Shown here piece by piece: positions 430 to 55,755 of a stretch of 64,000 nucleotides of DNA. The DNA lies in NCBI GenBank assembly GCA_903909215.1, contig CAIVUX010000022.1, positions 7,609 to 71,608 of the forward strand, written 5' to 3'. The notes under the pieces were generated by a model that did no database searches, was not told the DNA's origin, and saw only the letters and a program-made list of their open reading frames with translations. This stretch comes from an uncultured Ferrovum sp. Lineage in GTDB: Bacteria; Pseudomonadota; Gammaproteobacteria; Burkholderiales; Ferrovaceae. Position numbers and translations under genes: made by a program. The first letter of the stretch is position 1, and every line of letters begins with the position of its first letter.

Positions 430-2766
430 TTATTTCTTCTTTTTGGGTTTAGTGGGCACTGCTTTAGGTGCTTTAGAGGTCGCTTTAGGTGCTTTAGAGG
501 TCGCTTTAGGTGGTTTAGGGGTCTGACCCCGTTTTGCCGCTTTAGGGGTCTGACCCCGGGTTGCCTGTTTTGTCGGTTTTGGGGTCTGACCCCGGTCTGA
601 GGCGGTGACAGATTCTGGTACAAAGTCGATCTTATTGGTTTCCATATCCACCCGCACCAACTGCACACGCACGCGATCGCCTAGGCGATAACGCATGCCG
701 GTGCGTTCGCCCAATAACTGATGGCGTGTGGCGTCATAGCGGAAATAATCGGTGCCCAATTCAGAAATATGCACCAACCCTTCCACATACACTTCATCCA
801 ACGCCACAAACAAACCAAAACTGGTCACCGAGCTGACAGAGCCTGAGAACACTTCACCCACACGGTCTTTCATGTAGAAACACTTGAGCCACGCTTCCAC
901 ATCACGGGTGGCGTCATCCGCCCGACGTTCCGTAAGCGAACAATGAGCCCCAATGGCTTTCCAATCGCCTGGTGCGTAAGTGCTATTGCCCAACACCGCC
1001 CGAATGGCACGATGCACCAGCAAATCGGGATAGCGGCGAATAGGCGATGTGAAATGCGCATACGCTGCATACGCCAAGCCAAAGTGACCGACATTTTCTG
1101 GGTTGTACTGCGCTTGCTGCAAGGAGCGCAACAAGACCGTTTCCAGCAGGCGTTGGTCGGGGCGGCCTTGAATCTTTTTAATAAGCTCGGCGTAATCCGC
1201 CGCTTTGGGTTTATCGCCTCCGGCCAAGTGCAAACCAAATTCTCCCAAGAAATCACGCACCATGGTAAGGCGCTCTGGGGCAGGCACGGGATGAATACGA
1301 TACAAGCAAGCATGTTGATGGCTGGACAAATAATCCGCAGCACAGACGTTGGCCGCCAACATGCATTCTTCAATTAACCGATGGGCGTCGTTGCGCTCAA
1401 CCGGCAAAATGGTTTCAATTTTGCCGCGATCGTCAAATACCATGCGCGTTTCATCGCTGGCAAAATCAATAGCGCCGCGCACCGCACGAGCGGCCAAAAA
1501 TACATGGAAAACTTTTTCTAGGTTTTGCAGCTGAGGAATAATGGGGCGTCGTGCAGAATCCGCCCGCTGTGGGGCTTCCAGAATAGCCGCCACTTCTGTG
1601 TAGGTTAAGCGGGCATGAGAATGCATCACTGCAGGATAAAAACGATACTCGGAAATCTGGCCCTCAGCACTCACCTGCATATCGCACACCATGCATAGGC
1701 GATCTACATTGGGATTGAGTGAACAAAGGCCGTTACTTAAGGCTTCAGGCAGCATGGGTATAACGCGACGAGGAAAATACACACTGTTGCCACGCTCATA
1801 GGCGGTTAAGTCCAACGCATCCTTGGGGCGCACATAAAACGACACGTCCGCAATGGCCACCACCAAGCGATGTCCGTCGCCAGAGGGCTCGGCAAACACG
1901 GCATCATCAAAGTCGCGTGCGGTTTCGCCATCAATGGTGACGAGAGGCAGCTTGCGCAAATCCACACGGCCCTTAATATCCTCTTCCCGCACACCAGCGG
2001 GCAGTTGGGCCGCCAATGCTTCCGCCGCAGGCGAGAACTCGTGAGGCAATTCGTGTTTGCGCAGCGCAATTTCCACTTCCATACCGGGGTCAGCGTAATT
2101 GCCCAACACCTCTACCACACGAGCGATGGGCTCTGATTGTCGGCTGGGCTGCGCCATTAATTCAATCATCACCACTTGGCCGGGGTTAGCGCCATGATGT
2201 TGGCCAGGGGACACCAAAATATCTTGGCTGATGCGCTTGTTCTCCGCCACAGCAAACAGCACTCCTTGCTCTTGAAACAAACGCGCCACCAAACGCGTGT
2301 TCACATGCTCCAAAATTTCCACAATGGTACCCTCTGGGCGGCCACGGGTATCGGTACCAATGGTGCGCACCATGACGCGATCACCATGCAAGACGCGTTG
2401 CATTTCGCGCGTGCCCAAAAAGATGTCGCTGCCGCCGTCTTCACGAATGGCAAAACCGAAACCTTCTGGATGTCCTTCCACGCGCGCTGAAACCAAATCC
2501 AGTTTGGCCGGCAAACAAAGTGCGTTTTTGCGATTGCGCATCAATTGACCATCACGCTCCATGGCGCGCAGGCGACGAGAAAACAACTCGCGCTCGCTCT
2601 CTTGAATGGTGAGCAGTCGTTCAATGCGCTCCACGGTCACCGGCACCCCCTCTTGGGAGAGAATTTGCAAAATGAACTCACGGCTGGGCAAAGGCTCAGG
2701 GTATTGGGTTTTTTCACGCTCCAGATGAGGATCTTGGAGTCGCAGGGGGGTATTTTCTGTTGACAA
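430..2766 (-). CDS. rnr: Ribonuclease R (3'-5' exoribonuclease) with a Lys/Pro-rich repeat-bearing C-terminal tail
   Basis: 778-aa ORF. It carries RNB-domain motifs (VTIDGETARDFDDAV, HFGLAYAAYAHFTSPIRRYPDL), a C-terminal S1 domain and a basic tail. It is collinear with E. coli RNase R as I remember it. TTG at 2766 is the only in-frame start upstream of the conserved DPxxEREK N-terminus. Confidence 0.95.
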   Translation of the reverse strand: MSTENTPLRLQDPHLEREKTQYPEPLPSREFILQILSQEGVPVTVERIERLLTIQESERELFSRRLRAMERDGQLMRNRKNALCLPAKLDLVSARVEGHPEGFGFAIREDGGSDIFLGTREMQRVLHGDRVMVRTIGTDTRGRPEGTIVEILEHVNTRLVARLFQEQGVLFAVAENKRISQDILVSPGQHHGANPGQVVMIELMAQPSRQSEPIARVVEVLGNYADPGMEVEIALRKHELPHEFSPAAEALAAQLPAGVREEDIKGRVDLRKLPLVTIDGETARDFDDAVFAEPSGDGHRLVVAIADVSFYVRPKDALDLTAYERGNSVYFPRRVIPMLPEALSNGLCSLNPNVDRLCMVCDMQVSAEGQISEYRFYPAVMHSHARLTYTEVAAILEAPQRADSARRPIIPQLQNLEKVFHVFLAARAVRGAIDFASDETRMVFDDRGKIETILPVERNDAHRLIEECMLAANVCAADYLSSHQHACLYRIHPVPAPERLTMVRDFLGEFGLHLAGGDKPKAADYAELIKKIQGRPDQRLLETVLLRSLQQAQYNPENVGHFGLAYAAYAHFTSPIRRYPDLLVHRAIRAVLGNSTYAPGDWKAIGAHCSLTERRADDATRDVEAWLKCFYMKDRVGEVFSGSVSSVTSFGLFVALDEVYVEGLVHISELGTDYFRYDATRHQLLGERTGMRYRLGDRVRVQLVRVDMETNKIDFVPESVTASDRGQTPKPTKQATRGQTPKAAKRGQTPKPPKATSKAPKATSKAPKAVPTKPKKKK
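461..523. repeat. 21-bp tandem repeat (about 3 units of gctttaggtgctttagaggtc) inside the rnr 3' end
   Basis: Units at 461-481 and 482-502 are identical. A third diverged unit at 503-523 runs into the first palindrome copy. On the minus strand it encodes KATSKAP-KATSKAP in the RNase R tail. Confidence 0.9.
518..593. repeat. Three direct copies of the 13-bp palindrome GGGGTCTGACCCC (518-530, 545-557, 581-593) within the rnr tail
   Basis: Exact matches read from the sequence. Each is translated on the minus strand as R-G-Q-T-P-K. Spacing between copies is 27 and 36 nt, both multiples of 3. Confidence 0.95.
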
Positions 2767-22990: not shown

Positions 22991-23902
22991 CTATTTTGGT
23001 TTCTTGGGGGCGGTTAACCCCAAGGTGCGGTGTGTGAGAGCGGGCAAGCTTAAACGCAAATCGGCCAAGTGAATGGGGTTTACGCCGGCAATGACAATGC
23101 CAGAACCGCGCGGCAATTGGTCGAGAACCACGCCCCAAGGATCCACAATCATACTGGAGCCATGGGTTTCACGACCATTCTTGTGATAACCCCCTTGCGC
23201 GGGCGCCACCACATAGGCCAGGTTTTCAATGGCGCGTGCACGGATCAGGGTTTCCCAATGGGCGCGGCCCGTGGTCTCGGTAAATGCTGAGGGGATAAAA
23301 ATTAAATCCACCGAACCCATGGCGCGGTAGAGCTCGGGAAAGCGCAAGTCGTAGCAGATGGATAGACCAATACGTCCGAAGGGGCTGTCGAGAGCCACTA
23401 CTTCATCGCCCGGTTGAATGGTTTTTTCTTCTTCGTAATGCTCAGCGCCCCGCCTAAAGCCAAACAAATGAATTTTGTCGTAACGGGCTACGCAATGGCC
23501 TTCGCTATTAAACACCAGGCAACTGTTGCGAATTTTTTTAGGGTCAGACCCCGTTAAGGGGGCTGACCCCTTAATCGTTTTAATCGGCACCGAGCCGCCC
23601 ACAATCCACACGCCATAACGCACCGCGGCACGTGCCAGAAATTCTTGAATGGGGCCTTTGCCAAAATCTTCTGCAGCGTTAATTTTATCTGTTTCACGCA
23701 TGCCCATAATGGCGAAATATTCTGGTAATGCCACAATAGAGGCACCTTGATCTGCCGCCATTTTAATGAGTCGACCGGCTTCAGATAGGTTTCCACCCAC
23801 ATTAGGACCCGAGGCCATCTGGATGGCGGCCACGCGAAAACTACCCGGTAAAGGGCGCGCTTTACCAAATCCTGAATCAATTTTTTTAGGGGAAACGCTC
23901 AT
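22991..23902 (-). CDS. Carbon-nitrogen hydrolase (nitrilase superfamily) protein
   Basis: The Glu-Lys-Cys triad contexts are present: VALPEYF, RYDKIHLF, GLSICYDLRFPE. The start was trimmed to the ATG at 23902 (MSVSPKK...), 10 nt downstream of the yhdP stop. The gene carries a palindrome pair in a loop (KGSAPLTGSDPKK). Confidence 0.85.
   Translation of the reverse strand: MSVSPKKIDSGFGKARPLPGSFRVAAIQMASGPNVGGNLSEAGRLIKMAADQGASIVALPEYFAIMGMRETDKINAAEDFGKGPIQEFLARAAVRYGVWIVGGSVPIKTIKGSAPLTGSDPKKIRNSCLVFNSEGHCVARYDKIHLFGFRRGAEHYEEEKTIQPGDEVVALDSPFGRIGLSICYDLRFPELYRAMGSVDLIFIPSAFTETTGRAHWETLIRARAIENLAYVVAPAQGGYHKNGRETHGSSMIVDPWGVVLDQLPRGSGIVIAGVNPIHLADLRLSLPALTHRTLGLTAPKKPK
23540..23570. repeat. 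Degenerate inverted pair of the 13-bp palindrome (AGGGTCAGACCCC, then gttaa, then GGGGGCTGACCCC)
   Basis: Each copy differs from GGGGTCWGACCCC at one position. On the minus strand it is read as G-S-A-P-L-T-G-S-D-P inside the CN-hydrolase gene. Confidence 0.85.
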
Positions 23903-30378: not shown

Positions 30379-31037
30379 CTGTTTTGAAATACGTCGGCCA
30401 GTAAGTCCACGTCCTGCAAAATACCTTTATCCTCCACATCCACCCAAGTAATGCTTAGAGCATGGCGTTGCAACAGTGAGCGCGCCCCTTCATCACCTCG
30501 CAGTGCCATAAGCTCATTCCAATAGCGTCGAGAAAAGCCCACCGGATTACCCCGTGACCCCTGATAACACGGCACCACGATATCCGCCCCTTGCTCTAAG
30601 GCTTCTCGCAGCGCCGACACGGTGGAGGACTGTACCCAAGGCATATCGCCCAAGGCAACAATCCAGCCTGCAGCATCCGCGCTGCCCATAAGACCGCTGC
30701 GCAAGCTGAGCGACTGGCTTGGGATTAGTAAATATGGGGTCTGACCCCTGGGGGGGTCAGACCCCATATTTACCGTGTTTACCATGCTGACTAACTTCAA
30801 GTCAGCGGAGGTTACAGACACCACTGTTAAATTGGGACGCGAGGCGCCTATGGGGTTTTGTTGCAAAACGGCGCATAGGGGGGATGAGTCATCAGGCACC
30901 ACCGCCAGACTTTGCTGCAACGAGACCAAGCATTGAGCGGCGCGTACCACTACCGGCACGCCTTCTAATGCATGCAGTAATTTGTTGCTGCCAAAGCGTG
31001 AACTCTGCCCTGCGGCCAACAAAATTCCCACGATCAT
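30375..31037 (-). CDS. MobA-like NTP transferase (MocA-type molybdenum cofactor cytidylyltransferase) carrying a palindromic-element insertion
   Basis: N-terminus GILLAAGQSSRFGSNKLL and GDMPWV are typical of the MobA/MocA family. An ATGA overlap links it to xdhC. At 220 aa it is about 25 aa longer than the family members I remember, and the extra segment coincides with the repeat at 30729-30772. Confidence 0.8.
   Translation of the reverse strand: MIVGILLAAGQSSRFGSNKLLHALEGVPVVVRAAQCLVSLQQSLAVVPDDSSPLCAVLQQNPIGASRPNLTVVSVTSADLKLVSMVNTVNMGSDPPRGQTPYLLIPSQSLSLRSGLMGSADAAGWIVALGDMPWVQSSTVSALREALEQGADIVVPCYQGSRGNPVGFSRRYWNELMALRGDEGARSLLQRHALSITWVDVEDKGILQDVDLLADVFQNS
30729..30772. repeat. Perfect 20-bp inverted repeat: TAAATAT-GGGGTCTGACCCC, a 4-nt spacer (tggg), then GGGGTCAGACCCC-ATATTTA
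   Basis: Read directly from the sequence. On the minus strand it is translated in frame as V-N-M-G-S-D-P-P-R-G-Q-T-P-Y-L inside the MocA-like gene. A second 7-bp-stem hairpin, GCTGACT/AGTCAGC, lies at 30786-30806. Confidence 0.95.
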
Positions 31038-33367: not shown

Positions 33368-34177
33368 CTATCGCCCTGTACTCATAATGCCCCAACCCAA
33401 AGTAGATTCCTGTCCCTGCAATTGCAGGTGAAGTTGCTGAACCTTAGCCGCATCATCCTGCCGACGCTGCTGAATGATTTCACCAGCCATCTGATTGGCA
33501 CTCGCCTCATCTTGCGCTTTGGCTGTGGTATTGGCCTGAGAACCCGCCATAAGTGCAATCAGTTGCGCATTTTGACCGGCCATTAAATTAAGATGTTGGT
33601 TAACGGTTTGAAAGCTTTGTTGCAATCCACTACTGGCAGGAATTTGCTCTTGCAACAACAGCACGCGCGCATACGCATCATTTACCCCTTGCAATGCAGC
33701 AACCTGCCCCTGGAAAACGGTCTGCAGGCTCTGGCCGCGGTATTGCGCCACTTGCATCTCACGACTCATGTAGTCGCTGGGAGTAACACCCATGGCCGCC
33801 ATTTGGCGAAACTGCGTGTTAAATGTTGATTGCGCACCGTTTTGTTGGATCAGTAGCGTGGTTAATGATTGCGATAACGACTGTGCTGTGCTGAGTTCGC
33901 TGCTATACGAATTTAAAGTCTGGTTGAATGTGGTTTGTGGAAATTTTTGTAGGTTTTGTAATTCGATGATGTATTGCTGAACCTGCAACAGATAGGATTG
34001 CACCATTTGTGCCGTTTGGCGAATAGAGTTGGCAGCCGTTACGGCAGTTTCTGCGTAATTGGCAGGATCAAATACGGTGATACCCATTCCTTCACACGCC
34101 AGCGCGAGCAGAGAGAGGCTTAGCGCGCCCAACAGACGCACAAATAATGCCGGCCGCACGTGATGCAACACATTCAT
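33368..34177 (-). CDS. trbJ: P-type T4SS protein TrbJ/VirB5-like
   Basis: Signal peptide followed by a VFDPANYAETAVTAANSIRQ motif and a long Gln-rich helical region typical of TrbJ. An ATG at 34177 forms an ATGA overlap with the trbE stop; the track starts one TTG codon earlier. Confidence 0.75.
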   Translation of the reverse strand: MNVLHHVRPALFVRLLGALSLSLLALACEGMGITVFDPANYAETAVTAANSIRQTAQMVQSYLLQVQQYIIELQNLQKFPQTTFNQTLNSYSSELSTAQSLSQSLTTLLIQQNGAQSTFNTQFRQMAAMGVTPSDYMSREMQVAQYRGQSLQTVFQGQVAALQGVNDAYARVLLLQEQIPASSGLQQSFQTVNQHLNLMAGQNAQLIALMAGSQANTTAKAQDEASANQMAGEIIQQRRQDDAAKVQQLHLQLQGQESTLGWGIMSTGR

Positions 34178-36663
34178 CAAACACCCCGCCCTATTTCTAA
34201 CAAATACTCACTGGCCCAATCTGGGTGGGTTGAGTGATAATGCCGATCAAACACCGCCTGAGCCTTGGCATCCGAACGCAACCAACCCAGCAACGCTTGC
34301 GGAAAGGCCGCCTCCACCAGTTGGCTGCCGGCCGGGGTTTCGATGTAGTAATGTCGCTTTTCTATGGCACGCTCAATACGGTGAATTTGCGCATCATTCA
34401 AACCAAATTGCTTTCGGTACAGTTCACGATGCACAAAGGCTTGTCGATTGGGTAAAAACACACGGGTGGGGATATTATCGGCAATAGTCGAAAATATTTC
34501 TGAGCTGGATAAATCATCTAAGGATTGCGTAGCCAATACCAATGAACCCAATTTTTTAGGTATGGTTTTTAGCCAATCGCGAATACGTGCTGAAAAGTAC
34601 GGATCGGATAACATAAACCAAGCTTCCTCCACGTAAATCAGGGTAGGAATGCCCGGCCCACTATTAAGCGCCTCGCTCACTCTAAAAAAAGCATATTCCA
34701 AAAACGCTCTGGCCACACGGGTGTCGCGCAGCACCGCCGCCATTTCAATGCATGTAAAAGCAGTTAATGTAAACGTGTCTTCCAATTGATCAAAATAACC
34801 GCCCATGGGGCCACCGGCCAACCAAGGCTCTAGTTCAGCACTCAGGTGGCGGGGCAATAAGCCATGCAGACTTTTAAGTTGATGCAGATGGGGCGATAAG
34901 GCCGCCAATCCCTCAATGGCCTGCCACAGGGCATTGTCATCACCCGCCACCAAATGGTAACCGCGTGCGGTAATTAAGATCTCAATCCATTGTGCCAACC
35001 ATTGATGATGGCGCTCTTGTGCAACCAATAGCAGTGGATTTAGTCGTACCCGCCCATCCGACACATCAATACATCGCCCGCCTTGCAGCAAGGTGGGAAT
35101 GCGGCATGAGCGGTCTTTATCAAAAATGATGGTGCGTACAGGATGGTATTTTTGAAACTGGCTGAGCACAAAATTAACCCATACGGATTTACCGCTGCGC
35201 GAGGGGCCCACCACAAAGGCGTGAGCCAAATCGTGGTGATGCAAATTAAAGTAATAAGGACTACCAGTGGGTGTATTAAATAAAGTGAGCGCTGGAGCAG
35301 GACGACTTGTTTGCTGTGCTAGGTAAACGTTTACTCGTTCACCATTAGTATTAGAACGAATGGGACATAAATCGGACCAGTTGGCGGTATTGATAAAATG
35401 CCAACGCACCAACTCGCCCCACTGACCGGGCAAGGTTCCTGCCCACGCCGAATTAAGATGCAAACGTTCGCGCAACAATAAAAAACCGTGAGTTCGAATG
35501 GAAGAAGCCACTAACCCCAATCCTTCATCGAGCGCATCCAAGGTTTTGGCGTAAACCATGGCCGTGAGGTTATGATACCCAAACACCCGTTGTGAGGACG
35601 CCATCTCTGTTAAGGCATCCCGTGCATCACCTGCAGAAATGGCGCGCCCCGTGTCTTTTACCACGCTCTCTTCCCCGGACAACGCTTCTCGCACAAAACT
35701 GAACAAAGATTTTTGCAAGTTAAGATGAAATCTTTGCACATTCTTGATATAACTCTTGGCCGAGTCCGTATCCACCAAGCGAAACACTTGCGACAATGTT
35801 AATTCAGCGGGTACGGTAAGCACGTCATCTAACATCTGCGGAAATGTCGTGCTGGGCCATCCTTTAATGGCCAATGCGCCACCCAAGCGCAAATGTTCCA
35901 CTCCTTCAAAACGAATATGATCTCCATTGACCACCACCCGATCTTCTCCTAAGGCGGTATCCAAATATCCCTCTGCCGGAATGCATGGCGCCGCCTCACG
36001 CCGCGTGGCGGGACTGGTGACTTCATGCAAAAAACCAATTAAATCCACCCCTTCTAAGCGCACAGGGCCCAAAGACTGTAAGGTGCCAGAAAAATAACCG
36101 AGCAATTCTTCAAATCGTTCTATGCGCCGCAATAAAACTTGCTCATCATGAAGGTAGGCTTCACTGTGAAAAAAATGCCGACTCGTGGTTTTCCATAATC
36201 GGTACAGCACCCCTCCGTCACCGTGCCCCGCAGCCCTCGCCAGCTCACTCCATAATCCATCATGGTGCTTGTCCAGTGAAAATAACACGCTGATGAAATG
36301 ACGATTGTAAAAATGAGGTTCGCCGGCAAGAGACTGTCGATAGAGGGCGTCGATGGTGGCGCTGCCCAGATGTTCAAAAGTGCCTTGTGGGTAATCGTGC
36401 CATTCACGACGCAACACCGTAGACCATAGGGTAAAACGATGGTCAAAATTACGCAGTGCCTGTTCAAATAACACAACACCGTGATCAATAGCCCCACCCT
36501 CTAAACCCTCCACCGCCATACCACGCAACGAAAAGCAGGCCAGCAAACCACCATCTTTATTAAGGATTAGCCCAGGTTTTATATGAATCAGCCACGGCAA
36601 CACTTCAGCCAGACCACGCGAACGGCCATCAAAACCCAAGGCCCGTCGTTTAATATTTAGCAT
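34177..36663 (-). CDS. trbE: T4SS ATPase TrbE/VirB4
   Basis: 828 aa. Walker A GPSRSGKS, a Walker B-like IYVEEAW, and the LATQSLDD motif. Size and position match TrbE. Confidence 0.9.
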   Translation of the reverse strand: MLNIKRRALGFDGRSRGLAEVLPWLIHIKPGLILNKDGGLLACFSLRGMAVEGLEGGAIDHGVVLFEQALRNFDHRFTLWSTVLRREWHDYPQGTFEHLGSATIDALYRQSLAGEPHFYNRHFISVLFSLDKHHDGLWSELARAAGHGDGGVLYRLWKTTSRHFFHSEAYLHDEQVLLRRIERFEELLGYFSGTLQSLGPVRLEGVDLIGFLHEVTSPATRREAAPCIPAEGYLDTALGEDRVVVNGDHIRFEGVEHLRLGGALAIKGWPSTTFPQMLDDVLTVPAELTLSQVFRLVDTDSAKSYIKNVQRFHLNLQKSLFSFVREALSGEESVVKDTGRAISAGDARDALTEMASSQRVFGYHNLTAMVYAKTLDALDEGLGLVASSIRTHGFLLLRERLHLNSAWAGTLPGQWGELVRWHFINTANWSDLCPIRSNTNGERVNVYLAQQTSRPAPALTLFNTPTGSPYYFNLHHHDLAHAFVVGPSRSGKSVWVNFVLSQFQKYHPVRTIIFDKDRSCRIPTLLQGGRCIDVSDGRVRLNPLLLVAQERHHQWLAQWIEILITARGYHLVAGDDNALWQAIEGLAALSPHLHQLKSLHGLLPRHLSAELEPWLAGGPMGGYFDQLEDTFTLTAFTCIEMAAVLRDTRVARAFLEYAFFRVSEALNSGPGIPTLIYVEEAWFMLSDPYFSARIRDWLKTIPKKLGSLVLATQSLDDLSSSEIFSTIADNIPTRVFLPNRQAFVHRELYRKQFGLNDAQIHRIERAIEKRHYYIETPAGSQLVEAAFPQALLGWLRSDAKAQAVFDRHYHSTHPDWASEYLLEIGRGV

Positions 36664-36980
36664 GGTAGTGCACGCCCAAAACCATCAGGACGTGGGTTGC
36701 GTTTTATGCGCACATGCGGCCATGGGTCGTAACTGTCTGCTTGATGGTTGTAACGCACATAAATAAGCCGTGTGAAGGGGTCATCTAAGGTGATGCGGCG
36801 CAAAATGAGATGCGCCAATACGGCGATGGGTACCCAGCCCCAGAGGTGTAAATCGCCCACCAGGGCTATGGCCAAGGTGCCGTTTACGATGGCAAATGGT
36901 TTTTCAACGCCGGCAATGAGCAAGGGCTCTACCAAGGCCAAATGCAATGCGCTGCGACGACGCTGAGATACCGTGCTCAC
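36657..36980 (-). CDS. trbD: T4SS protein TrbD/VirB3
   Basis: About 107 aa with a hydrophobic hairpin (LAIALVGDLHLWGWVPIAVLAHLIL). A GTG at 36980 forms a GTGA overlap with the trbC stop, and the gene overlaps trbE by 7 nt. Confidence 0.75.
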   Translation of the reverse strand: MSTVSQRRRSALHLALVEPLLIAGVEKPFAIVNGTLAIALVGDLHLWGWVPIAVLAHLILRRITLDDPFTRLIYVRYNHQADSYDPWPHVRIKRNPRPDGFGRALPC

Positions 36981-37327
36981 AAACAACCCGGTATGCTAAC
37001 GCCTGGGAACAATGCGGTAATGATACTGGCTACAGAAAGCGCGCAGGAAAGGCCCAACAACCATCCCCCAATGCGCGCCACGATACCCCCTGTTTCAGAA
37101 TACATAAACATAATGCCAATCATGATGGTGGCCACCACGGATAACATGACGGCCACTTGGTCCTTAAGGCTGGCGGCTACGGCACACATGGGGCCTTCCC
37201 AGGGCATTGCGGTGCTGGCCTCAAGCGGGCCTGCTGCGGCACATAGCAAGAACAGCAATAGTGCGCTTGCACCCAGATGCAAATTAATGGCTAAATAAAA
37301 CGTGCGTTTGGTAGTGGCCATCGCCAT
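36977..37327 (-). CDS. trbC: T4SS pilin precursor TrbC/VirB2
   Basis: Signal-like N-terminus plus two hydrophobic helices (VAVMLSVVATIMIGIMFMY / WLLGLSCALSVASIITALF). GGAGGGG lies upstream of the ATG codons at 37327 and 37321, so the exact start is uncertain. The longer track ORF runs back into trbB. Confidence 0.7.
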   Translation of the reverse strand: MAMATTKRTFYLAINLHLGASALLLFLLCAAAGPLEASTAMPWEGPMCAVAASLKDQVAVMLSVVATIMIGIMFMYSETGGIVARIGGWLLGLSCALSVASIITALFPGVSIPGCL

Positions 37328-38300
37328 ACCCCTCCACAGAAATAAGCTTTTCAATTTGGCGCACACCATTGCGTCGTGTAAGGTGCACCACGCCATCAAT
37401 ACAATTGGAAATATGCCGAGCAATAGCCTCTATTGCCAAACCCACGCCGCTTTGCATGACCAGTTGCTCCAGGCGATGCAAGGCGTCTTGCGCACTATTG
37501 GCATGCAAGGTGCCCAAGCAGCCGTCATGACCGGTGTTCATGGCCTGAATTAAATCGAAGGCTTCGCCTCCACGCACTTCACCCACCACAATTCGATCTG
37601 GGCGAAAGCGCAAGGATTGACGCACCAAATCGCGCACCGTCACACCCAATGTTTGGTTGGCCTCAAAGGTCACATAATTGGGAAGATCGATAGTCAATTC
37701 GCGCGGGTCTTCAATCGCAATAATGCGATCACTGCAGGACATGACCTTAATTAAGGCATTTAAAAAAGTGGTTTTCCCTGTACTGGTTCCACCGCTCACC
37801 AAGATATTCTTGCGATACTTAACCCAATCCGTAAGCTGATCCAATGGTTCTGCGCCCACTTGGAACTCTTTGCTCAACAGATTCTGGGCTTCTTGAGCGC
37901 TGGTTGCGGAGGGGGTTTGTGGCAGATAGTCAGACAGTGACCGTAGAGCGCCGGACAACTTGCGAATGCATAGCGCATGGCCTTTTGTGGCAATAGGCGA
38001 GAGCACAGCGGACACCCGCATGCCACTAAAAGCAGCGTCCAATAGCGAAGGGCCATTGTGCCGACCCACATCACGCTGGGCCATGGTGCCTAAAATATGA
38101 ATGGCATTGCGTGCTTCATGACTTGAAAACGCATGTTCGGTTTTATGCAAACACCCTGCGCGCTCTACCCATACATCGTCAGCACCATTAATCATGACCT
38201 CGCGCACCATGGGGTCGTCCAACAACGCCACCAAGGGGTTTAAGGAATCGCGCAACATAAGAGAGAGGTGTTGGTGCATGTCTGGGTTCATGCAAACCAT
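37284..38300 (-). CDS. trbB: T4SS/secretion ATPase TrbB/VirB11
   Basis: 338 aa. Walker A GGTSTGKTTFLNAL, a DRIIAIEDPREL Asp box, a RPDRIVVGEVRG Walker B, and a His box (GHDGCLGTLHAN). The exact start (one of the M codons at 38300-38259) is unclear, and no good SD is present. Confidence 0.88.
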   Translation of the reverse strand: MVCMNPDMHQHLSLMLRDSLNPLVALLDDPMVREVMINGADDVWVERAGCLHKTEHAFSSHEARNAIHILGTMAQRDVGRHNGPSLLDAAFSGMRVSAVLSPIATKGHALCIRKLSGALRSLSDYLPQTPSATSAQEAQNLLSKEFQVGAEPLDQLTDWVKYRKNILVSGGTSTGKTTFLNALIKVMSCSDRIIAIEDPRELTIDLPNYVTFEANQTLGVTVRDLVRQSLRFRPDRIVVGEVRGGEAFDLIQAMNTGHDGCLGTLHANSAQDALHRLEQLVMQSGVGLAIEAIARHISNCIDGVVHLTRRNGVRQIEKLISVEGYGDGHYQTHVLFSH

Positions 38301-39469: not shown

Positions 39470-40510
39470 ATGAATCCATCGCCACTTTTCTCCTCAAACC
39501 CTAAGGCTAGCCCCTTTCGAGCCCCCAGATGGCTGGGTGATCCTCATGCACAAACCCTCTATGGCGCCCTATTAGCACCCGTCGGCACGCCGCTCTGGCA
39601 ACGCGAAACATGGACCACCCCCGACAATGACTTTATCCATGTGGATACCCTAGAGGGGGCGCCCGACGCACCCTTACTGGTGATTTTTCATGGGCTGGAA
39701 GGCAGTACCAACTCACGCTACAGCCGCGCGTTAGCCCTTGCAACACAGGCACGGGGTTGGCGTGTATGCGCGCCCAACTTTAGAAGTTGTAGCGGCATCA
39801 TGAATCGCGCTCCGCGTCTGTATCATGCAGGCGACAGTGCCGAGATTGACTGGATTTTAAAACGCGCCTGGACCTTGGGGTCAGACCCCACTACTCTTGT
39901 GGGGTCTGACCCCAAAGTGCAACGACCCATGTTCGCGGTAGGCGTATCTTTGGGCGGCAACATGTTGCTGAAGTGGTTGGGCGAGCAAGGCGCTACAGCC
40001 AAACCTATCCTACATGCCGCCGCCGCCGTGTCTGCACCCCTGGATTTGGCTGCTGTGGCGGAAAACCTGTCTTTGGGTTTTAACCGCGTCTACACCCACC
40101 ATTTCTTAAGCACCCTTAAACAAAAGGCGCGCGCCAAATACGCACAGCACCCACACCTGTTCGACTTACACCGCACGCTGTCCTCGCGCACCATGCGTGA
40201 CTTTGACGATCACTTCATGGGACCGGTGCATGGCTTTCGTGATGCCGAAGATTATTGGGCACGCTCTAGCAGCACACCGTTTTTGCCGCTGATTCAGGTG
40301 CCCACGCTGTTATTAAACGCTCAGGATGACCCTTTTATGCCCGCCGGCGTGTTGCCTAATGCCCGCCAATGCGCCACGGCTGTTAGACGCGACTTTTCAG
40401 CACAAGGCGGTCATGTGGGATTTGTGTCTGACGGTTTTCCCGGCCATTTAAAGTGGATGCCGCAGCGGGTATTGGATTTTTTGGCGTCCTCTTTAAACCC
40501 AATCAGGTAA
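39470..40510 (+). CDS. Alpha/beta hydrolase, YheT/ABHD1-3-like, carrying a palindrome-pair insertion
   Basis: Contains HGLEGS, a nucleophile elbow GVSLGGN, and a C-terminal DDPF...GGHVGF. An ATG at 39470 follows the TTG used by the track. An extra segment, LGSDPTTLVGSDPK, lies just before the nucleophile elbow. Confidence 0.8.
   Translation: MNPSPLFSSNPKASPFRAPRWLGDPHAQTLYGALLAPVGTPLWQRETWTTPDNDFIHVDTLEGAPDAPLLVIFHGLEGSTNSRYSRALALATQARGWRVCAPNFRSCSGIMNRAPRLYHAGDSAEIDWILKRAWTLGSDPTTLVGSDPKVQRPMFAVGVSLGGNMLLKWLGEQGATAKPILHAAAAVSAPLDLAAVAENLSLGFNRVYTHHFLSTLKQKARAKYAQHPHLFDLHRTLSSRTMRDFDDHFMGPVHGFRDAEDYWARSSSTPFLPLIQVPTLLLNAQDDPFMPAGVLPNARQCATAVRRDFSAQGGHVGFVSDGFPGHLKWMPQRVLDFLASSLNPIR
39877..39913. 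repeat. Inverted pair of the 13-bp palindrome (GGGGTCAGACCCC, an 11-nt spacer, GGGGTCTGACCCC)
   Basis: Both copies are perfect. It is read on the plus strand as G-S-D-P-T-T-L-V-G-S-D-P within the hydrolase gene. Confidence 0.95.
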
Positions 40511-49248: not shown

Positions 49249-50607
49249 TTAAAGGGCCACACGAAAGTCGCAACCGGTCTTGGCTCTCACTTGCTCGAGG
49301 GTTACCCCCTCATGAAGCTCCGTGAGCACCAGGCCTGCTCCCGGCTCCACTTGAAATACGCATAGTTCTGTAATGATGGTGTTTACCACGGCGCGCCCGG
49401 TAATGGGCAACGAACATGATTTGAGAATTTTAGGTTCGCCATGTTTGGAGGCATGCTCCATCAGCACAATGACGCGGCCCACACCAGACACCAAATCCAT
49501 GGCCCCACCGGGACCTTTCACCATTTTACCCGGCACCATCCAATTGGCCAGATCACCGTTTTCTGCCACCTCAAGCCCGCCTAAAATAGAGAGGTCCACG
49601 TGACCCCCGCGGATCATGGCAAAAGAATCGGCACTGGAAAAAGTGCTGGAGCCTGGCAGAGTAGTAATGGTTTGCTTGCCCGCATTAATCAAATCAGCGT
49701 CCACCGTGTCTTCTGTGGGAAAAGGGCCAATACCCATCAAGCCATTTTCTGATTGCAACGTGACATGAATGTCTTCAGGGATGTAATTGGCCACCAAGGT
49801 GGGGATGCCAATTCCCAAATTAACATAGAAGCCATCTTTTAATTCCTTTGCTGCCCGCATGGCCAATACTTCACGTACCGATAAATGATGGTGATCCACA
49901 TGATGCCCGCCTGTCAGCGTGCGAAACTCGATGCGTTTTTGGTAGTTTTTACCCTGAATGATGCGGTCCACATAAATGCCAGGGGTGTGAACGCTGTCTG
50001 GATCCAGTTCGCCCGGTTGCACCAGTTCTTCCACCTCCGCCACGGTAATACGCCCGCAAGTGGCCACCATGGGGTTAAAGTTGCGCGCTGTTTTACGAAA
50101 CACCAAGTTGCCTAAGGTGTCGCCCTTCCAGGCTTTCACAATCGACAGATCTGTTTGAATGGCTTCTTCTAATACGTATTCGCGCCCTTTAAACTCGCGC
50201 GTGGGCTTCCCTTCTGCCAATAATGTTCCGACAGCGGTGCGGGTATAAAACCCAGGAATACCAGCGCCCCCGGCGCGGAGCTTTTCTGCCAAAGTGCCCT
50301 GCGGCGTCAATTCTAACTCCAGTTCATGGGCCAACACCTGACGCTCAAATTCCTTGTTCTCGCCCACATAAGAGGCAATCACTTTTTTAACCTGATGGGT
50401 TTTTAGCAGTAAGCCCATGCCAAAATCATCCACGCCGGCATTGTTGCCCACAATGGTTAGGCCTTTAGCTCCGCTGTCCACCAACGCTTCAATAAGGTTT
50501 TCTGGAATTCCGCATAAACCAAAACCACCTGCGGCAATGGACATATCATCATGAAGCAAACCGGCCAATGCACTTTTGGCATCGGGAAACACCTTATTGA
50601 GGGCCAT
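49249..50607 (-). CDS. 3-oxoacid (succinyl-CoA:3-ketoacid) CoA-transferase, subunits A and B fused in one polypeptide
   Basis: 452 aa. The N-terminal half resembles subunit A (AAGGFGLCGIPENL). The C-terminal half resembles subunit B, with the catalytic-Glu motif LQSENGLMGIGP. The two halves are joined by a His-rich linker (TGGHHVDHHHL). Confidence 0.85.
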   Translation of the reverse strand: MALNKVFPDAKSALAGLLHDDMSIAAGGFGLCGIPENLIEALVDSGAKGLTIVGNNAGVDDFGMGLLLKTHQVKKVIASYVGENKEFERQVLAHELELELTPQGTLAEKLRAGGAGIPGFYTRTAVGTLLAEGKPTREFKGREYVLEEAIQTDLSIVKAWKGDTLGNLVFRKTARNFNPMVATCGRITVAEVEELVQPGELDPDSVHTPGIYVDRIIQGKNYQKRIEFRTLTGGHHVDHHHLSVREVLAMRAAKELKDGFYVNLGIGIPTLVANYIPEDIHVTLQSENGLMGIGPFPTEDTVDADLINAGKQTITTLPGSSTFSSADSFAMIRGGHVDLSILGGLEVAENGDLANWMVPGKMVKGPGGAMDLVSGVGRVIVLMEHASKHGEPKILKSCSLPITGRAVVNTIITELCVFQVEPGAGLVLTELHEGVTLEQVRAKTGCDFRVAL

Positions 50608-50703
50608 TGAATAATCAATCCGTGAAATAAAAGGAGGGGAAAGCCCATTTTACCGCAGCGCAGCAAACTGTGGTGAAAGTTTAACGCCAGACAAAGCCGA
50701 ATT

Positions 50704-51351
50704 TTAGGGTGGTAATAGCTTGTTTCTTAAGGCTATTAAAGTTAACTCGGCTTGGTTTTTCGCGGCCAGCTTTTGTTTGATGTTGTACAGATGGGTCCCC
50801 ACAGTGCGGGGGCTTAAAAACAAGGTTTCGGCAATCTGTGCCACAGACTGTCCGGCTGCCAAATGCATAAACACTTCAAACTCACGCTCAGAGAGCACTT
50901 CCACGGGGTTAGAAGACCCAGAAAGAGATTCTTCAACCAGCGCTGAGGCCAAGTGAGGGTCCAGATAGGTTTCATTGCGCGACACTTGCCAGAGGGCTTT
51001 GATGAGCTCTTCTGCCGCACTGCGTTTGGACAAATAACCGCGCGCGCCGGCGGCCATGAGGCGCCGTGGGTGCACGGTATCTTCATGAGCCGAGAGAATC
51101 AATATGCGCGCATCGGGGTGATGGGCCAGAATGCGACTTAAGGCCTCCATGCCTCCAATGCCTGGCATAGACACATCCATCACCAGTACATCGGGCAAGG
51201 CCTCAGGGTAAATACGGCACGCCGCCTCGCCACTGTCGGCCTCGGCGCATACCACCATGTCACCACCGCCCTCCACCAACATACGAAATCCCATGCGCAC
51301 CACCGCATGATCATCTGCCAACATGACACGCAAAGGATGCGCACTCTTCAC
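50704..51351 (-). CDS. NarL/FixJ-family response regulator (REC + LuxR-type HTH)
   Basis: REC motifs (LADDH, DVLVMDVSMPG) and a C-terminal LSEREFEVFMHLAAGQSVAQIAETLFLSPRTVGTHLYNIKQKL. A GTG at 51351 forms a GTGA overlap with the kinase stop. An alternative ATG lies at 51324. Confidence 0.85.
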   Translation of the reverse strand: MKSAHPLRVMLADDHAVVRMGFRMLVEGGGDMVVCAEADSGEAACRIYPEALPDVLVMDVSMPGIGGMEALSRILAHHPDARILILSAHEDTVHPRRLMAAGARGYLSKRSAAEELIKALWQVSRNETYLDPHLASALVEESLSGSSNPVEVLSEREFEVFMHLAAGQSVAQIAETLFLSPRTVGTHLYNIKQKLAAKNQAELTLIALRNKLLPP

Positions 51352-52709
51352 GAAGGTCCCCCTAAGGGCAAGAATACCTCCACACAAAATCCTTGACCGG
51401 GTGTACTGGTCACGTCAAAACGCCCACCCAACGCCTGCACACGCTCACGCATACCCAATACACCAAAACGGTTATCCTTCATTTCGTCCAACGCCATACC
51501 ACGGCCATCATCCGCCACGCGAATGGTTAATTCCTGAGGTTGCGCCGTCACCGTCACCTCGATGGTTTCGGCTTCGGCGTGACGCACAGTGTTGGTCAAA
51601 CATTCTTGCACCACACGATAAACAGTAATGCGCAAAAAGTCAGGCAACGCTTCTAAGTCACCAACCAACGTAATCAACAGATGATGCTCTGGATAGAGGT
51701 TGCGATGCGTGCGCACCAAATCATTGAGCGCCTCGCTAAGGCCTAAATTATCCAAGGCCAAGGGGCGCAATTGCCGCACCATACGGTGCATGGCGTCATA
51801 CATGGTGCCCGATACGGAAACAATCGCTTGTGCGCGCTCAGTCATTTCAGGATGAGTGGCAGCGCTCTGCTGTGCAATCGTGGTGGCAATGGTGCGCACG
51901 GCGGTCACCGACTGCCCCAACTCATCATGCAATTCACGGGCCAAGTTACGCCGCTCGTCTTCTAAGTGCGACTGAATAAGGGCCGACACTTCGCGACTGT
52001 CTTGTAGCTCTTGTGCGGTTCTGGCCGCAGCTTTTTTAATCAGAAAGCTCTCTTCCACTGCTTGAGCCATACGATTAAAAGCCCGTCCCAACAATGCCAT
52101 CTCGCGCATACGCCAATTGGGTAAGCGGGTGTGAAATTCCTTTCTCTCCATTTGCTCTAATCCCAAAATGAGATCACGCAAAGGCGCCAAAGCACGCCCC
52201 ACAATCACATACAGTACCGCATTCACCAAAACGAAAAAAGCCAGTACCAACCAAAGAATTTTTTGCAATTCATCCCATGCGTCCACCACAGAACGCGAGG
52301 CATCGGGGGCAATGACCATATGCCCCCCTGGAAACTCAATGGATACAGGGGACGCTTGCGGAGTTACCCATTCGGCAAACCAAAGTGGGGCGTAATGACC
52401 GGCTTTATATTGAAAAGGAGGAGATTTATAAACCAATAGATCCGCAGCATTGTAGAGCGCAATGTCATGTGCCCGTACGCGCCCCACACGGTTCATGAAC
52501 TCCACCAACAGTTTGGGCGTAACGGCCTGTCCATTAGAAACCACGTCATGCATCATGGTGCCCAATAGTTGCACCGTAATACGAGTGGATCCTTCCATCT
52601 CCTCTCGAATACTGCGCCGTGATGCATCCACTTCTAAAAACAGCAAGGCCGAGATGAACAGAATCATCAAGGTGGTAATGAGCAAGTTAATTTGATTGCG
52701 CAGCGTCAT
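51348..52709 (-). CDS. Sensor histidine kinase, HisKA_3 (NarX/UhpB-like) with two TM segments and a HAMP domain
   Basis: H-box ELHDELGQSVTAV and an HATPase_c region (DDGRGM ... GVLGMRERV ... GGRF). Trimmed to MTLRNQ (ATG at 52709). The track extension reads through the intergenic palindromic element. Confidence 0.85.
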   Translation of the reverse strand: MTLRNQINLLITTLMILFISALLFLEVDASRRSIREEMEGSTRITVQLLGTMMHDVVSNGQAVTPKLLVEFMNRVGRVRAHDIALYNAADLLVYKSPPFQYKAGHYAPLWFAEWVTPQASPVSIEFPGGHMVIAPDASRSVVDAWDELQKILWLVLAFFVLVNAVLYVIVGRALAPLRDLILGLEQMERKEFHTRLPNWRMREMALLGRAFNRMAQAVEESFLIKKAAARTAQELQDSREVSALIQSHLEDERRNLARELHDELGQSVTAVRTIATTIAQQSAATHPEMTERAQAIVSVSGTMYDAMHRMVRQLRPLALDNLGLSEALNDLVRTHRNLYPEHHLLITLVGDLEALPDFLRITVYRVVQECLTNTVRHAEAETIEVTVTAQPQELTIRVADDGRGMALDEMKDNRFGVLGMRERVQALGGRFDVTSTPGQGFCVEVFLPLGGPS

Positions 52710-52775: not shown

Positions 52776-52819
52776 ATAATTTGGGGTCAGACCCCGCATG
52801 GGGTCTGACCCCAAATTAT
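52776..52819. repeat. Perfect 20-bp inverted repeat: ATAATTT-GGGGTCAGACCCC, a 4-nt spacer (gcat), then GGGGTCTGACCCC-AAATTAT. Intergenic.
   Basis: Read directly from the sequence. It has the same architecture as 30729-30772. It lies in the divergent kinase/folA promoter region and ends 13 nt before the folA ATG at 52833. Confidence 0.95.
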
Positions 52820-55095: not shown

Positions 55096-55755
55096 TCATC
55101 GACGCGCTGGCCCAGGTGCTTGATTTAATACCTGATATAGCTCCACCAGAATACCGGCCGTGGCACCCCAAATATGCCAATCCTGATAGGGAATGCTGTA
55201 ATAGCGCCGTTTCTGGCCCGCCCTCATAACTTCCTTAATCACGTGACGCGTTGGATCAAAGAAATGTTCCAGGGGCACTTCAAAAATTTCAGCCACTTCA
55301 AACTCATCGGCTTTAAGGGTTAGCGGGGGCTGCACCCAACCCACCACAGGAATGACGCGATACCCCGTGGGAATAAAATATTCCCGCAAGGTGCCCAGCA
55401 CCTTGACCTGTTGTGGCAACAGACCAATTTCCTCTTCGCTCTCGCGCAAGGCCGTGTGAATTGGATTGGGGTCTGACCCCTCAATGCGTCCACCGGGAAA
55501 GCTAATTTGTCCCGCATGATCACTCAGATGCAAAGTGCGTTTGGTGAGCAGTACATGAACGCCTTCAGGTCGATCCACCAAGGCCACCAATACGGCGGCT
55601 GGAACGGCGGCCAGACAGGCTTCCTCAGTCATCATGATGCGACCATCAAAAAAGGGCGCTGCAGGTGCGGCATTCAAAGAATCTTGAATCCATTCCTGCA
55701 GCGCTTCACGTGCTACTGATGCGTGACGCAAACGCTGAATCAGTGGCATCACCAT
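55096..55755 (-). CDS. NUDIX hydrolase, CoA pyrophosphatase (NudL-like)
   Basis: Nudix box GGRIEGSDPNPIHTALRESEEEIGL preceded by HAGQISFPGG. It is collinear with E. coli NudL as I remember it. Confidence 0.8.
   Translation of the reverse strand: MVMPLIQRLRHASVAREALQEWIQDSLNAAPAAPFFDGRIMMTEEACLAAVPAAVLVALVDRPEGVHVLLTKRTLHLSDHAGQISFPGGRIEGSDPNPIHTALRESEEEIGLLPQQVKVLGTLREYFIPTGYRVIPVVGWVQPPLTLKADEFEVAEIFEVPLEHFFDPTRHVIKEVMRAGQKRRYYSIPYQDWHIWGATAGILVELYQVLNQAPGPARR
55468..55480. repeat. Single perfect copy of GGGGTCTGACCCC inside the Nudix box region
   Basis: Exact match. On the minus strand it is read as E-G-S-D-P-N. Confidence 0.95.

What the first reader, a model, noticed from the sequence alone, without database searches (positions are those of the whole stretch)
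55468..55480. A single palindrome copy inside the Nudix box with no apparent length change, suggesting the motif can arise without insertion
The Nudix signature here reads GGRIEGSDPNPIHTALRESEEEIGL. The stretch between GG and LRE has the same length as in E. coli NudL as I recall it (AVDDTDASAIAAA versus RIEGSDPNPIHTA). The perfect GGGGTCTGACCCC therefore seems to have been written into pre-existing codons rather than inserted. Pure transposition does not predict this. It fits better with selection or biased conversion for the DNA word itself. That is how uptake sequences and Chi-like signals spread into coding regions through tolerated codons.
Basis: partly seen in the sequence, partly recalled or inferred. 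Interest (0 to 1): 0.6.

Follow-up and report, generated by a model that had tools for sequence, protein, structure and literature searches.

The report
Palindromic DNA word written into nudL
A 13-base palindrome repeated over 300 times in this small genome sits inside the catalytic motif of a CoA pyrophosphatase gene, and close relatives show it was made there by changing four bases of existing codons rather than by insertion, so the DNA word itself is being favoured.

Summary
Observation confirmed. GGGGTCTGACCCC lies at 55468-55480 inside the Nudix box of an intact CoA pyrophosphatase gene (E92-G-S-D-P96). Alignments with 30 orthologues and solved structures show no length change.

Same-genus relatives settle the origin. 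Where this genome reads GAG GGG TCA GAC CCC, they read GAG CCC TCA GAC ACC or AGA. So the word was made in place by CCC->GGG plus ACC->CCC.

This is the rule genome-wide:
- The genome holds 336 perfect copies.
- Of the isolated in-gene copies with orthologues, 26 of 34 are gap-free and only 3 are clear insertions.
- Of the in-gene pairs and triples, 18 of 20 make the protein 3-21 residues longer.

The word is also kept at the DNA level. Across five copies shared with a 16%-diverged relative, 0 of 60 motif positions differ (P=2e-5). That includes 0 of 20 synonymous third positions (P=0.002).

The family is REP-like. It forms hairpin pairs that come and go as indels, and in another genus the same word flanks a RAYT-like transposase. 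This genome has no detectable RAYT, and half its copies lie in ORFs.

Selection or drive versus templated conversion remains unresolved.

The parts
55468..55480 (.). Isolated perfect copy of the 13-nt word GGGGTC(W)GACCCC. It covers the last base of the E92 codon plus codons G93 S94 D95 P96 of nudL.
   Evidence: No partner with 3 or fewer mismatches lies within 60 nt. Alone it forms only a 5-bp, 3-nt-loop hairpin of -4.3 kcal/mol as ssDNA.
55096..55755 (-). nudL-like CoA pyrophosphatase gene, 219 aa, intact.
   Evidence: NCBIfam NF007980 at 151.6 bits (cut-off 134). Pfam NUDIX. PDB CoA pyrophosphatases are the best hits. Orthologues were found in 33 of 41 related genomes.
55420..55491 (-). Nudix box G89-L112 (GGRIEGSDPNPIHTALRESEEEIGL). 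The word occupies the variable loop between GG and the REx2EE helix, but it includes the invariant Asp codon GAC.
   Evidence: In the alignment of 30 orthologues the D is invariant (GAC or GAT) and E/D precedes it. The two residues replaced here (P->G, T/R->P) are variable columns.
52783..52812 (.). Family member: hairpin pair GGGGTCAGACCCC-N4-GGGGTCTGACCCC with AT-rich arms, between folA and the sensor kinase gene.
   Evidence: It is conserved in four lineages (G000, L031, L270, L268). The 26 motif bases are intact in three of them, the loops differ, and the arms change in a compensatory way. The pair folds at -19.9 kcal/mol.
39877..39913 (.). Family member: in-gene pair (GSDPTTLVGSDP) in an alpha/beta hydrolase gene. 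It serves as the insertional contrast to the nudL copy.
   Evidence: G000 is 11-12 residues longer than G006, G007 and G010 across this cluster (cluster 7).
30736..30765 (.). Family member: in-gene pair with a perfect extended palindrome.
   Evidence: C22:38344, extension 8. No orthologue match was obtained for it.
518..593 (.). Family members: three direct copies (RGQTPK x3) in the C-terminal tail of the RNase R gene.
   Evidence: The orthologue hits stop before the tail (cluster 5).
23540..23570 (.). Family members: a pair with one mismatch in each copy.

Best explanation
The nudL copy is one of at least 336 copies of a genus-specific, REP-like palindromic word.

Shown:
- The word was created in place, after this lineage split from the lineages of L270 and L268. 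The ancestral codons GAG CCC TCA GAC ACC already matched 9 of 13 positions, including the invariant Asp codon. They became GAG GGG TCA GAC CCC through CCC->GGG (Pro->Gly) and ACC->CCC (Thr->Pro), with no change in length.
- Isolated in-gene copies generally arise this way. Hairpin pairs and triples arise as insertions.
- Once present, the word is held constant at synonymous sites.

Inferred: the driver is a directional pressure on the double-stranded DNA word itself. Word-creating substitutions are preferentially fixed and word-destroying ones removed, as with uptake sequences and HIP1. Protein-level selection then allows the word only where G-S-D-P, G-Q-T-P, G-L-T-P or G-V-R-P is tolerated.

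What reads the word is not known. It could be a binding, uptake or recombination protein, or a hairpin-specific enzyme. The symmetry of the word and the lack of any strand bias relative to transcription point to recognition of duplex DNA or of either strand, not of mRNA.
For: In-place origin:
- The codon alignment of G000, L031, L270 and L268 shows the change directly.
- Both relatives are collinear with the window (89.6% identity over 12.4 kb with 5 gaps; 84.9% over 20.7 kb).
- Both already carry the word elsewhere, so the family predates this copy.

Generality:
- There are 64 isolated copies, 40 of them in ORFs.
- 34 of those have orthologues in G006, G007 or G010. 26 are gap-free, 4 have a 1-aa indel nearby, 3 are clear insertions and 1 is unclear.
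- In many cases the orthologues already encode GSDP, GADP, ASDP, GGQTP or GGLTP.
- Contrast: 18 of 20 in-gene multi-copy clusters make G000 longer by 3-21 aa.

Pressure at the DNA level, not the protein level:
- 73 of 82 GSDP tetrapeptides use exactly the motif codons. GSDP is 16 times more frequent than composition predicts.
- Between G000 and L284, 0 of 60 fixed motif positions differ in five shared mnmC copies, against 16.3% background divergence (P=2.3e-5). Also 0 of 20 synonymous third positions differ, against 27.6% background (P=0.0016).
- The centre base shows no bias relative to gene strand.
- The frame that would give a TGA stop is absent, though my ORF-based gene calls exclude it by construction.

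Chance is excluded. A third-order Markov model expects 0 perfect and 2.3 one-mismatch sites; 336 and 68 are observed.
Against: - No reader of the word was identified. ComEC is present, but that does not show competence.
- The word is absent or nearly absent (0-5 copies) from 24 other genomes of the family. Uptake sequences, by contrast, are usually shared family-wide.
- Two-mismatch sites are at background (55 against 50), so there is no visible pool of intermediates climbing towards the word.
- In nudL three adjacent bases changed together, which a single templated event would explain more simply than three separate fixations.
- Synonymous-site conservation is equally expected from ongoing homogenisation.
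- Only one young copy (nudL) could be polarised with close relatives. The mnmC single is older than the split, so its origin was not seen.
Confidence: 0.6

Rival explanations
1. One-step templated short-patch conversion. The whole word, or each half of it, was copied into a near-matching site from one of the hundreds of other copies by copy-choice or template switching at stalled forks or during repair. Continuing conversion then keeps the copies identical.
For: - In nudL three contiguous bases changed (CCC->GGG) together with one more, all towards the word. Neighbouring codons show only scattered single differences.
- The mismatch spectrum is sharp (336 perfect, 68 one-off, two-off at background). 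38 of the 68 one-off mismatches sit at the outermost positions.
- Isolated in-gene copies show a flank preference (TT before, AA after) beyond the 13-mer.
- At the first mnmC site G000 has perfect copies where L283 has a longer, decayed version. That fits refreshing of old copies.
- Synonymous-site identity is expected under homogenisation.
Against: - No known bacterial mechanism converts a 13-nt patch without flanking homology.
- The ancestral nudL site offers only a 6-nt core (TCAGAC) of microhomology and does not fold (-0.1 kcal/mol), so intrastrand quasi-palindrome correction is unlikely.
- The nudL copy lacks the AA flank on one side.
- Orthologue matches show no core-outward pattern.
Confidence: 0.28
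2. Classical REPIN/RAYT transposition put the copy there as an insertion, and a later compensating deletion restored the length. Alternatively the copy is the remnant of a decayed pair.
For: - The family has REP hallmarks. In G039 the same word, as abutting tandems, flanks both sides of a RAYT-like gene (NF047646, 74.2 bits).
- Pairs are gained and lost as indels within the genus.
Against: - Same-genus orthologues keep every flanking codon and already match 9 of 13 bases in register.
- There is no degenerate partner within 60 nt.
- G000 shows no Y1 transposase by PF01797 or by tblastn with the G039 proteins.
Confidence: 0.03
3. Protein-level adaptation: NudL was selected for Gly93 and Pro96, and the match to the word is incidental.
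For: The two changed residues lie in variable columns of the Nudix-box loop.
Against: - A perfect 13-mer by chance has an expectation of about 0 genome-wide.
- 73 of 82 GSDP peptides use exactly the same codons.
- 25 other isolated copies were written into unrelated genes in the same way.
Confidence: 0.02

Closest known systems
DNA uptake sequences (USS of Pasteurellaceae, DUS of Neisseriaceae)
   Same: - Hundreds of copies of a short word occur in both orientations.
- Copies inside genes arise by substitution at tolerated, poorly conserved positions and skew the proteome's peptide content (Findlay and Redfield 2009, PMC2817400). Here GSDP is 16-fold enriched, and motif sites are more variable among relatives than their flanks (0.385 against 0.285).
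- Inverted pairs form hairpins between genes.
   Different: - The word here is itself a palindrome.
- Density is lower, about 1 per 4.6 kb.
- It is restricted to one genus rather than shared across a family.
- Paired copies are inserted in frame into genes.
- Competence and biased uptake are untested; only ComEC was found.
HIP1 (GCGATCGC) of cyanobacteria
   Same: - It is a hyper-abundant palindrome found within and between ORFs without indels.
- Its sites are conserved between genomes beyond codon constraints, which has been read as selection rather than neutral replenishment (Xu, Lawrence and Durand 2018, PMC5861425). The same kind of test is positive here.
   Different: - This word is 13 nt rather than 8.
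- It also exists as hairpin pairs and triples that behave as insertions.
- No cognate methyltransferases were examined (for HIP1 see Elhai 2015, PMC4390886).
- It occurs in a single betaproteobacterial genus.
REP / REPIN elements with RAYT transposases
   Same: - It is a short GC-rich palindrome that is the genome's dominant repeat.
- Inverted doublets are the commonest form (64 A-T pairs with a 4-nt loop).
- Doublets are gained and lost as indels between close lineages.
- The identical word flanks a RAYT-like gene in G039 and occurs in 9 of 15 genomes of that genus. For the concept see Bertels and Rainey 2011 (PMC3116915).
   Different: - No RAYT is detectable in this 99.85%-complete assembly.
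- 164 of 336 copies lie in ORFs.
- Isolated copies arise by substitution, which replicative transposition does not predict.
- The doublet spacer is only 4-5 nt.
Rickettsia palindromic elements (RPE)
   Same: Palindromic repeats are inserted in frame into protein-coding genes of a small genome and tolerated as extra peptide segments. This parallels the pairs and triples here.
   Different: By my recollection RPEs are roughly 100-150 bp and always insertional. The nudL copy is 13 nt and length-neutral.

Membership tests
Nudix CoA pyrophosphatase (NudL / PRK10707) | Whole-protein score above the curated equivalog cut-off, with an intact Nudix box (REx2EE). | tested here: met
   NF007980 at 151.6 bits against a cut-off of 134. 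The RESEEEIGL motif is present. PDB CoA pyrophosphatases are the best hits.
REP/REPIN-RAYT system | A short palindromic repeat that is highly over-represented, commonly as inverted doublets. | tested here: met
   336 perfect copies against 0 expected. 89 pairs, 18 triples and 4 quadruples were found, and 64 adjacent A-T pairs have 17-nt spacing.
REP/REPIN-RAYT system | A cognate RAYT (Y1/HUH transposase) gene in the same genome, typically flanked by the REPs. | tested here: not met
   G000 has no PF01797 match and no tblastn hit with the G039 RAYT-like proteins. None of the six genes flanked by clusters is a transposase. The feature is met in G039. The assembly has 51 contigs and about 19 contig ends fall in the repeat, so a small unbinned contig cannot be excluded.
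REP/REPIN-RAYT system | Extragenic location. | tested here: not met
   164 copies lie in ORFs, 153 are intergenic and 19 sit at ORF edges, by my own crude gene calls. Intergenic density is still about 10-fold higher.
REP/REPIN-RAYT system | New copies arise by insertion (replicative transposition). | tested here: not met
   Not met for this copy or for 26 of 34 isolated in-gene copies. Met for pairs and triples, 18 of 20, and seen as indel polymorphisms.
DNA uptake sequences (USS/DUS) | Copies in coding regions arise by substitution at tolerated sites. | tested here: met
DNA uptake sequences (USS/DUS) | Natural competence with sequence-biased uptake of the word. | not testable with these tools
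   Only ComEC (PF03772, 184.7 bits) was found.
DNA uptake sequences (USS/DUS) | The word, or dialects of it, is shared across the family. | tested here: not met
   24 other genomes of the same family hold 0-5 copies. The 17-spaced pair occurs only in G000 among 401 genomes of the order.
HIP1-like iterated palindromes | Sites are conserved between genomes beyond protein constraint. | tested here: met
   0 of 60 motif positions and 0 of 20 synonymous third positions differ between G000 and L284 (P=2.3e-5 and 0.0016). The folA pair is intact in three of four lineages.
HIP1-like iterated palindromes | Cognate orphan DNA methyltransferases recognise the word. | not tested

The most novel reading that the evidence does not exclude
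The word is the target of a system not yet described in Betaproteobacteria. That system actively rewrites near-matching DNA into the perfect 13-mer and keeps copies identical. It would be either a REP-derived word that escaped dependence on its RAYT and now spreads by short templated conversion, or a palindromic uptake or recombination signal read by the cell's DNA-import machinery (ComEC, perhaps together with the domesticated half type IV secretion system in this window). Recent work links HIP1 to transformation and to type IV secretion in a similar way (bioRxiv 10.1101/2024.09.10.611283; PMC13756078). Either way, one word would have two modes of spread, insertion of hairpin pairs and substitution of single copies. 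It would be strong enough to change residues inside a catalytic motif.
Probability: 0.2. Interest if true: 0.8.

Novelty: new variant of a known kind. Interest (0 to 1): 0.6.

Why it matters
Repeated palindromes in bacteria are usually filed in one of two ways. Either they are mobile elements that insert (REP/REPIN, RPE), or they are favoured words that accumulate by substitution (uptake sequences, HIP1, Chi).

Here a single 13-nt word does both in a 1.5-Mb genome, and the two modes separate cleanly by architecture. Pairs and triples insert. Single copies are written into existing codons. The same word is a RAYT-flanking REP in a distant genus.

This gives a tractable case for asking how a REP-type sequence can become a selected or self-homogenising genomic word. 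It also shows how far DNA-level pressure can override protein sequence. GSDP is 16-fold enriched, and two residues were replaced inside the Nudix box of an enzyme under purifying selection.

It matters for annotation too. In this genus, GSDP, GQTP, GLTP and GVRP peptides and 10-residue loops are signatures of the repeat, not of protein function.

Tried and rejected
- Literature search for the 13-mer and its 11-mer core found only unrelated primers and viral sequences. The Ferrovum comparative-genomics paper mentions only CRISPR palindromes.
- A metagenome scan with NudL gave only a 97% relative that keeps the motif, which is uninformative. The informative 84-88% relatives came from the protein-cluster search.
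- I compared divergence in the motif and in its flanks against the distant G006 and G007. There was no excess of G000-specific changes in the motif (0.151 against 0.170). At about 35% divergence the comparison is saturated and cannot polarise origins.
- Per-position matching of distant orthologues to the word showed no core-outward pattern.
- My order-wide census used the 17-spaced pair pattern rather than the single word. It therefore shows only that the pair architecture is unique to G000 among 401 genomes. The single word was counted in just 41 relatives plus 15 genomes of G039's family.
- I looked for G000's missing RAYT among homologues of the G039 enzyme. All close homologues sit at a conserved mgtE-mtgA locus in 66-69% GC contigs and are flanked by related but different words (GGGTCAGACACG...). 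None came from a contig of about 52% GC. G000 has mtgA but no RAYT or mgtE beside it.
- The genome search could not search the metagenome records behind L268 and L270.
- I considered intrastrand quasi-palindrome correction as the source of CCC->GGG and judged it unlikely. The ancestral site has almost no stem, and that mechanism gives no reason for this particular word.

Full report
**What is there**

The window holds the perfect 13-mer GGGGTCTGACCCC at 55468-55480. It lies in ORF 55096-55755 on the minus strand (219 aa). That ORF scores above the curated NCBIfam cut-off for CoA pyrophosphatase (NF007980, 151.6 bits against 134) and carries a Pfam NUDIX domain.

On the coding strand the word reads G|GGG|TCA|GAC|CCC. 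That is the last base of the Glu92 codon followed by Gly93-Ser94-Asp95-Pro96. It sits inside the Nudix box GGRIEGSDPNPIHTALRESEEEIGL (G89-L112, window 55420-55491).

**Length**

- Thirty orthologues from related genomes (42-66% identity) align without a single gap from the GG to the LRE of the box. The Asp is invariant (GAC or GAT), and it coincides with the GAC of the word.
- phmmer alignments to solved CoA pyrophosphatases are gapless through the box for human NUDT7 and for 'Nudix hydrolase 11'. D. radiodurans 1nqz is one residue shorter.
The PRK10707 profile matches 162 positions to 163 residues, which leaves no room for a 4-5-residue insertion.

**The family**

The whole assembly (1.53 Mb, 51 contigs, 52.6% GC) has 336 perfect copies of GGGGTCWGACCCC in 199 clusters: 88 single, 89 double, 18 triple and 4 quadruple. 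A third-order Markov model expects 0 perfect and 2.3 one-mismatch sites. 336 and 68 are observed, and two-mismatch sites are at background (55 against 50). Of the 68 one-mismatch sites, 38 differ at the outermost positions 1 or 13.

The commonest arrangement is GGGGTCAGACCCC-N4-GGGGTCTGACCCC, often with complementary AT-rich arms. As single-stranded DNA it folds at -19.9 kcal/mol, against -4.3 for a single copy.

By my own crude ORF-based gene calls (91% coding), 164 copies lie in ORFs, 153 are intergenic and 19 overlap ORF ends. The reading frame that would give a TGA stop is absent, and there is no bias of the centre base relative to gene strand. About 19 contig ends fall inside the repeat, so the true copy number is higher.

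**Origin of the nudL copy**

The species-representative genomes contain no member of the same genus. The nearest NudL there is 66% identical. A metagenome scan gave only a 97% relative (L031) that keeps the word.

The protein-cluster search found intermediates at 88% (P0008) and 84% (P0009) identity. Their contigs are collinear with the window: L270 at 89.6% nucleotide identity over 12.4 kb with 5 gaps, and L268 at 84.9% over 20.7 kb.

At the site in question the four lineages read as follows:

| Lineage | Codons |
|---|---|
| G000 and L031 | GAG GGG TCA GAC CCC AAT |
| L270 | GAG CCC TCA GAC ACC GAC |
| L268 | GAG CCC TCA GAC AGA AAC |

The number of codons is the same, and the ancestral state matches 9 of 13 positions in register. 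The word was completed by CCC->GGG (Pro->Gly) and ACC->CCC (Thr->Pro).

Both relatives already carry the word elsewhere. For example, the folA/kinase hairpin pair is shared by all four lineages. So the family was active before this copy was made.

**Is this the rule?**

I defined true singles as copies with no partner of 3 or fewer mismatches within 60 nt. There are 64, of which 40 lie in ORFs. I concatenated the 65-residue segments around these 40 and searched them in three good genomes of the family. I then fetched the matching DNA and made codon alignments.

Thirty-four have an orthologue spanning the site:
- 26 are gap-free around the word.
- 4 have a one-residue indel nearby.
- 3 are clear insertions of 7, 8 and 14 residues.
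- 1 is unclear.

In many neutral cases the relatives already encode the same or a similar peptide (GSDP, GADP, ASDP, GGQTP, GGLTP, GLSP) with other codons. In one case G006 carries 12 of the 13 bases. The relatives differ from each other more at motif positions than in the flanks (0.385 against 0.285 differences per site), so the word sits at less constrained positions.

As a control I treated in-gene pairs and triples the same way. Of 20 with an orthologue spanning the cluster, 18 make the G000 protein 3-21 residues longer, judged by hit spans. Within the genus, pairs come and go as indels:
- L270 has a pair at about window 50640 that G000 and L268 lack.
- The amidase C-terminus has two copies in G000 and three in L268.

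So architecture predicts mode. Paired copies insert, and single copies are written into existing sequence.

**DNA-level pressure**

GSDP occurs 82 times in the predicted proteome against 5.1 expected from composition, and 73 of those are encoded by the perfect word. GQTP, GLTP and GVRP are enriched similarly, whereas related or reversed peptides are not.

The mnmC gene (outside the window) carries five copies that are shared with L285 (93% protein identity) and L284 (83%). Between G000 and L284 the gene is 16.3% diverged, yet 0 of the 60 fixed motif positions differ (P=2.3e-5). Also 0 of 20 synonymous third positions differ, against a 27.6% background (P=0.0016).

The folA pair keeps all 26 motif bases in three of four lineages, while its loop changes and its arms change in a compensatory way.

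The word is therefore maintained beyond what the proteins require. This rules out a recent neutral burst and fits selection or continuing homogenisation.

**Relation to REP/RAYT**

G000 has no Y1 transposase (PF01797). It also has no tblastn match to the G039 enzymes, and no transposase among genes flanked by clusters.

In G039, a high-GC genome of another family in the same order, the same word occurs 75 times, mostly as directly abutting 13-nt tandems. Arrays of it flank both sides of a gene that matches NCBIfam 'REP-associated tyrosine transposase' at 74.2 bits, just below the cut-off of 80. Nine of 15 genomes of that genus carry the word.

Homologues of that enzyme (60-88% identity) sit at the same mgtE-mtgA locus. 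They are flanked by related but different words. So in that lineage the word is a bona fide REP.

In G000's family the word is nearly absent outside this genus (0-5 copies). The 17-spaced pair is unique to G000 among 401 genomes of the order.

**Mechanism**

Shown:
- In-place, length-neutral origin of the nudL copy.
- Generality of this mode for isolated copies.
- An insertional mode for paired copies.
- DNA-level maintenance of the word.

Inferred: a directional pressure on the word itself, filtered by protein constraints. I lean (about 0.6) to preferential fixation of word-creating substitutions and removal of word-destroying ones, as documented for uptake sequences (PMC2817400) and argued for HIP1 (PMC5861425).

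The main rival (about 0.28) is one-step templated patch conversion. The following favour it:
- the three adjacent changes in nudL;
- the sharp mismatch spectrum;
- the flank preference of single copies;
- perfect copies in G000 where L283 has a decayed, longer version.

Against it, there is no known mechanism, and the ancestral site lacks usable microhomology or hairpin.

Three other explanations are effectively excluded: insertion followed by a compensating deletion, protein-level adaptation, and chance.

What reads the word is unknown. ComEC is present, but that is weak evidence for competence.

**Limits**

- Gene calls are my own heuristic.
- The pair control rests on hit spans rather than alignments.
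- Only one young single copy could be polarised with close relatives.
- The conservation test rests on five copies in one gene plus one intergenic pair.
- The assembly is fragmented at the repeat.
- The family name Ferrovaceae comes from an earlier agent's note. It is only loosely supported here by a 67%-identical hit that NCBI labels Ferrovum sp..

**Verdict**

This is a new variant of known kinds: a REP-like word with USS/HIP1-like substitutional spread into genes. It is of moderate to high interest because one word shows two cleanly separable modes of spread and measurably reshapes a proteome, including a catalytic motif.

Noticed in passing
window 52776-52819 (folA / sensor-kinase intergenic hairpin): Across four lineages the 26 motif bases are unchanged in three. 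The 4-nt loop varies (ATGC, GTAC, ATGC, ATTA). The AT-rich arms change in a compensatory way (AATTT...AAATT in G000 against AATTC...GAATT in L270). That suggests constraint on, or self-correction of, the whole hairpin.
   Followed up: partly
about window 50640-50700 (intergenic, between ORFs 49249-50607 and 50704-51387): The 89.6%-identical relative L270 carries a hairpin pair inserted here, and its contig ends inside it. G000 and L268 lack it. This is a presence/absence polymorphism of the paired form within the genus.
   Followed up: partly
G000 C22:82602-82631 (mnmC, outside the window) against L283:1-260: G000, L285 and L284 have a perfect in-frame pair at this site. The 84% lineage (L283) has a longer stretch of decayed motif-like units at the same site. 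Either old copies decayed there, or they were refreshed or re-inserted in the G000 lineage.
   Followed up: partly
L262 (G039:C26:4100-8500), gene 1673-2518(-): A RAYT-like gene is flanked on both sides by abutting tandem copies of exactly the same 13-mer. Its homologues at the same mgtE-mtgA locus in related high-GC contigs are flanked by variant words such as GGGTCAGACACG. So the word seems to co-evolve with the enzyme in that family.
   Followed up: partly
whole genome G000 (predicted proteome): The tetrapeptides GSDP, GQTP, GLTP and GVRP are 3- to 16-fold over-represented, and most instances are encoded by the perfect word. In-gene pairs favour spacings of 18, 24, 27 and 30 nt (multiples of three), so both copies are read in one frame (GSDPxxGSDP). 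Intergenic pairs are almost all spaced 17 nt.
   Followed up: partly
contig ends of G000 (for example C3:9, C12:4, C17:1, C33:1, C50:10): About 19 contig ends fall inside the repeat. Several share a longer unit (GGGGTTAGTATT-pair-AATACTAACCCC). So the assembly breaks at a larger repeat family, and copy number is underestimated.
   Followed up: no
window 32088-38300: An earlier agent described a conserved 'half' type IV secretion system here. Recent papers link the cyanobacterial palindrome HIP1 to transformation and to type IV secretion. G000 also has ComEC. No link to the 13-mer was tested, and the half-system is said to be family-wide whereas the word is genus-specific.
   Followed up: no
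window 518-593: Three direct copies of the word, each read as RGQTPK, build part of the C-terminal tail of RNase R. Orthologue matches in G006 and G007 stop before this tail.
   Followed up: no
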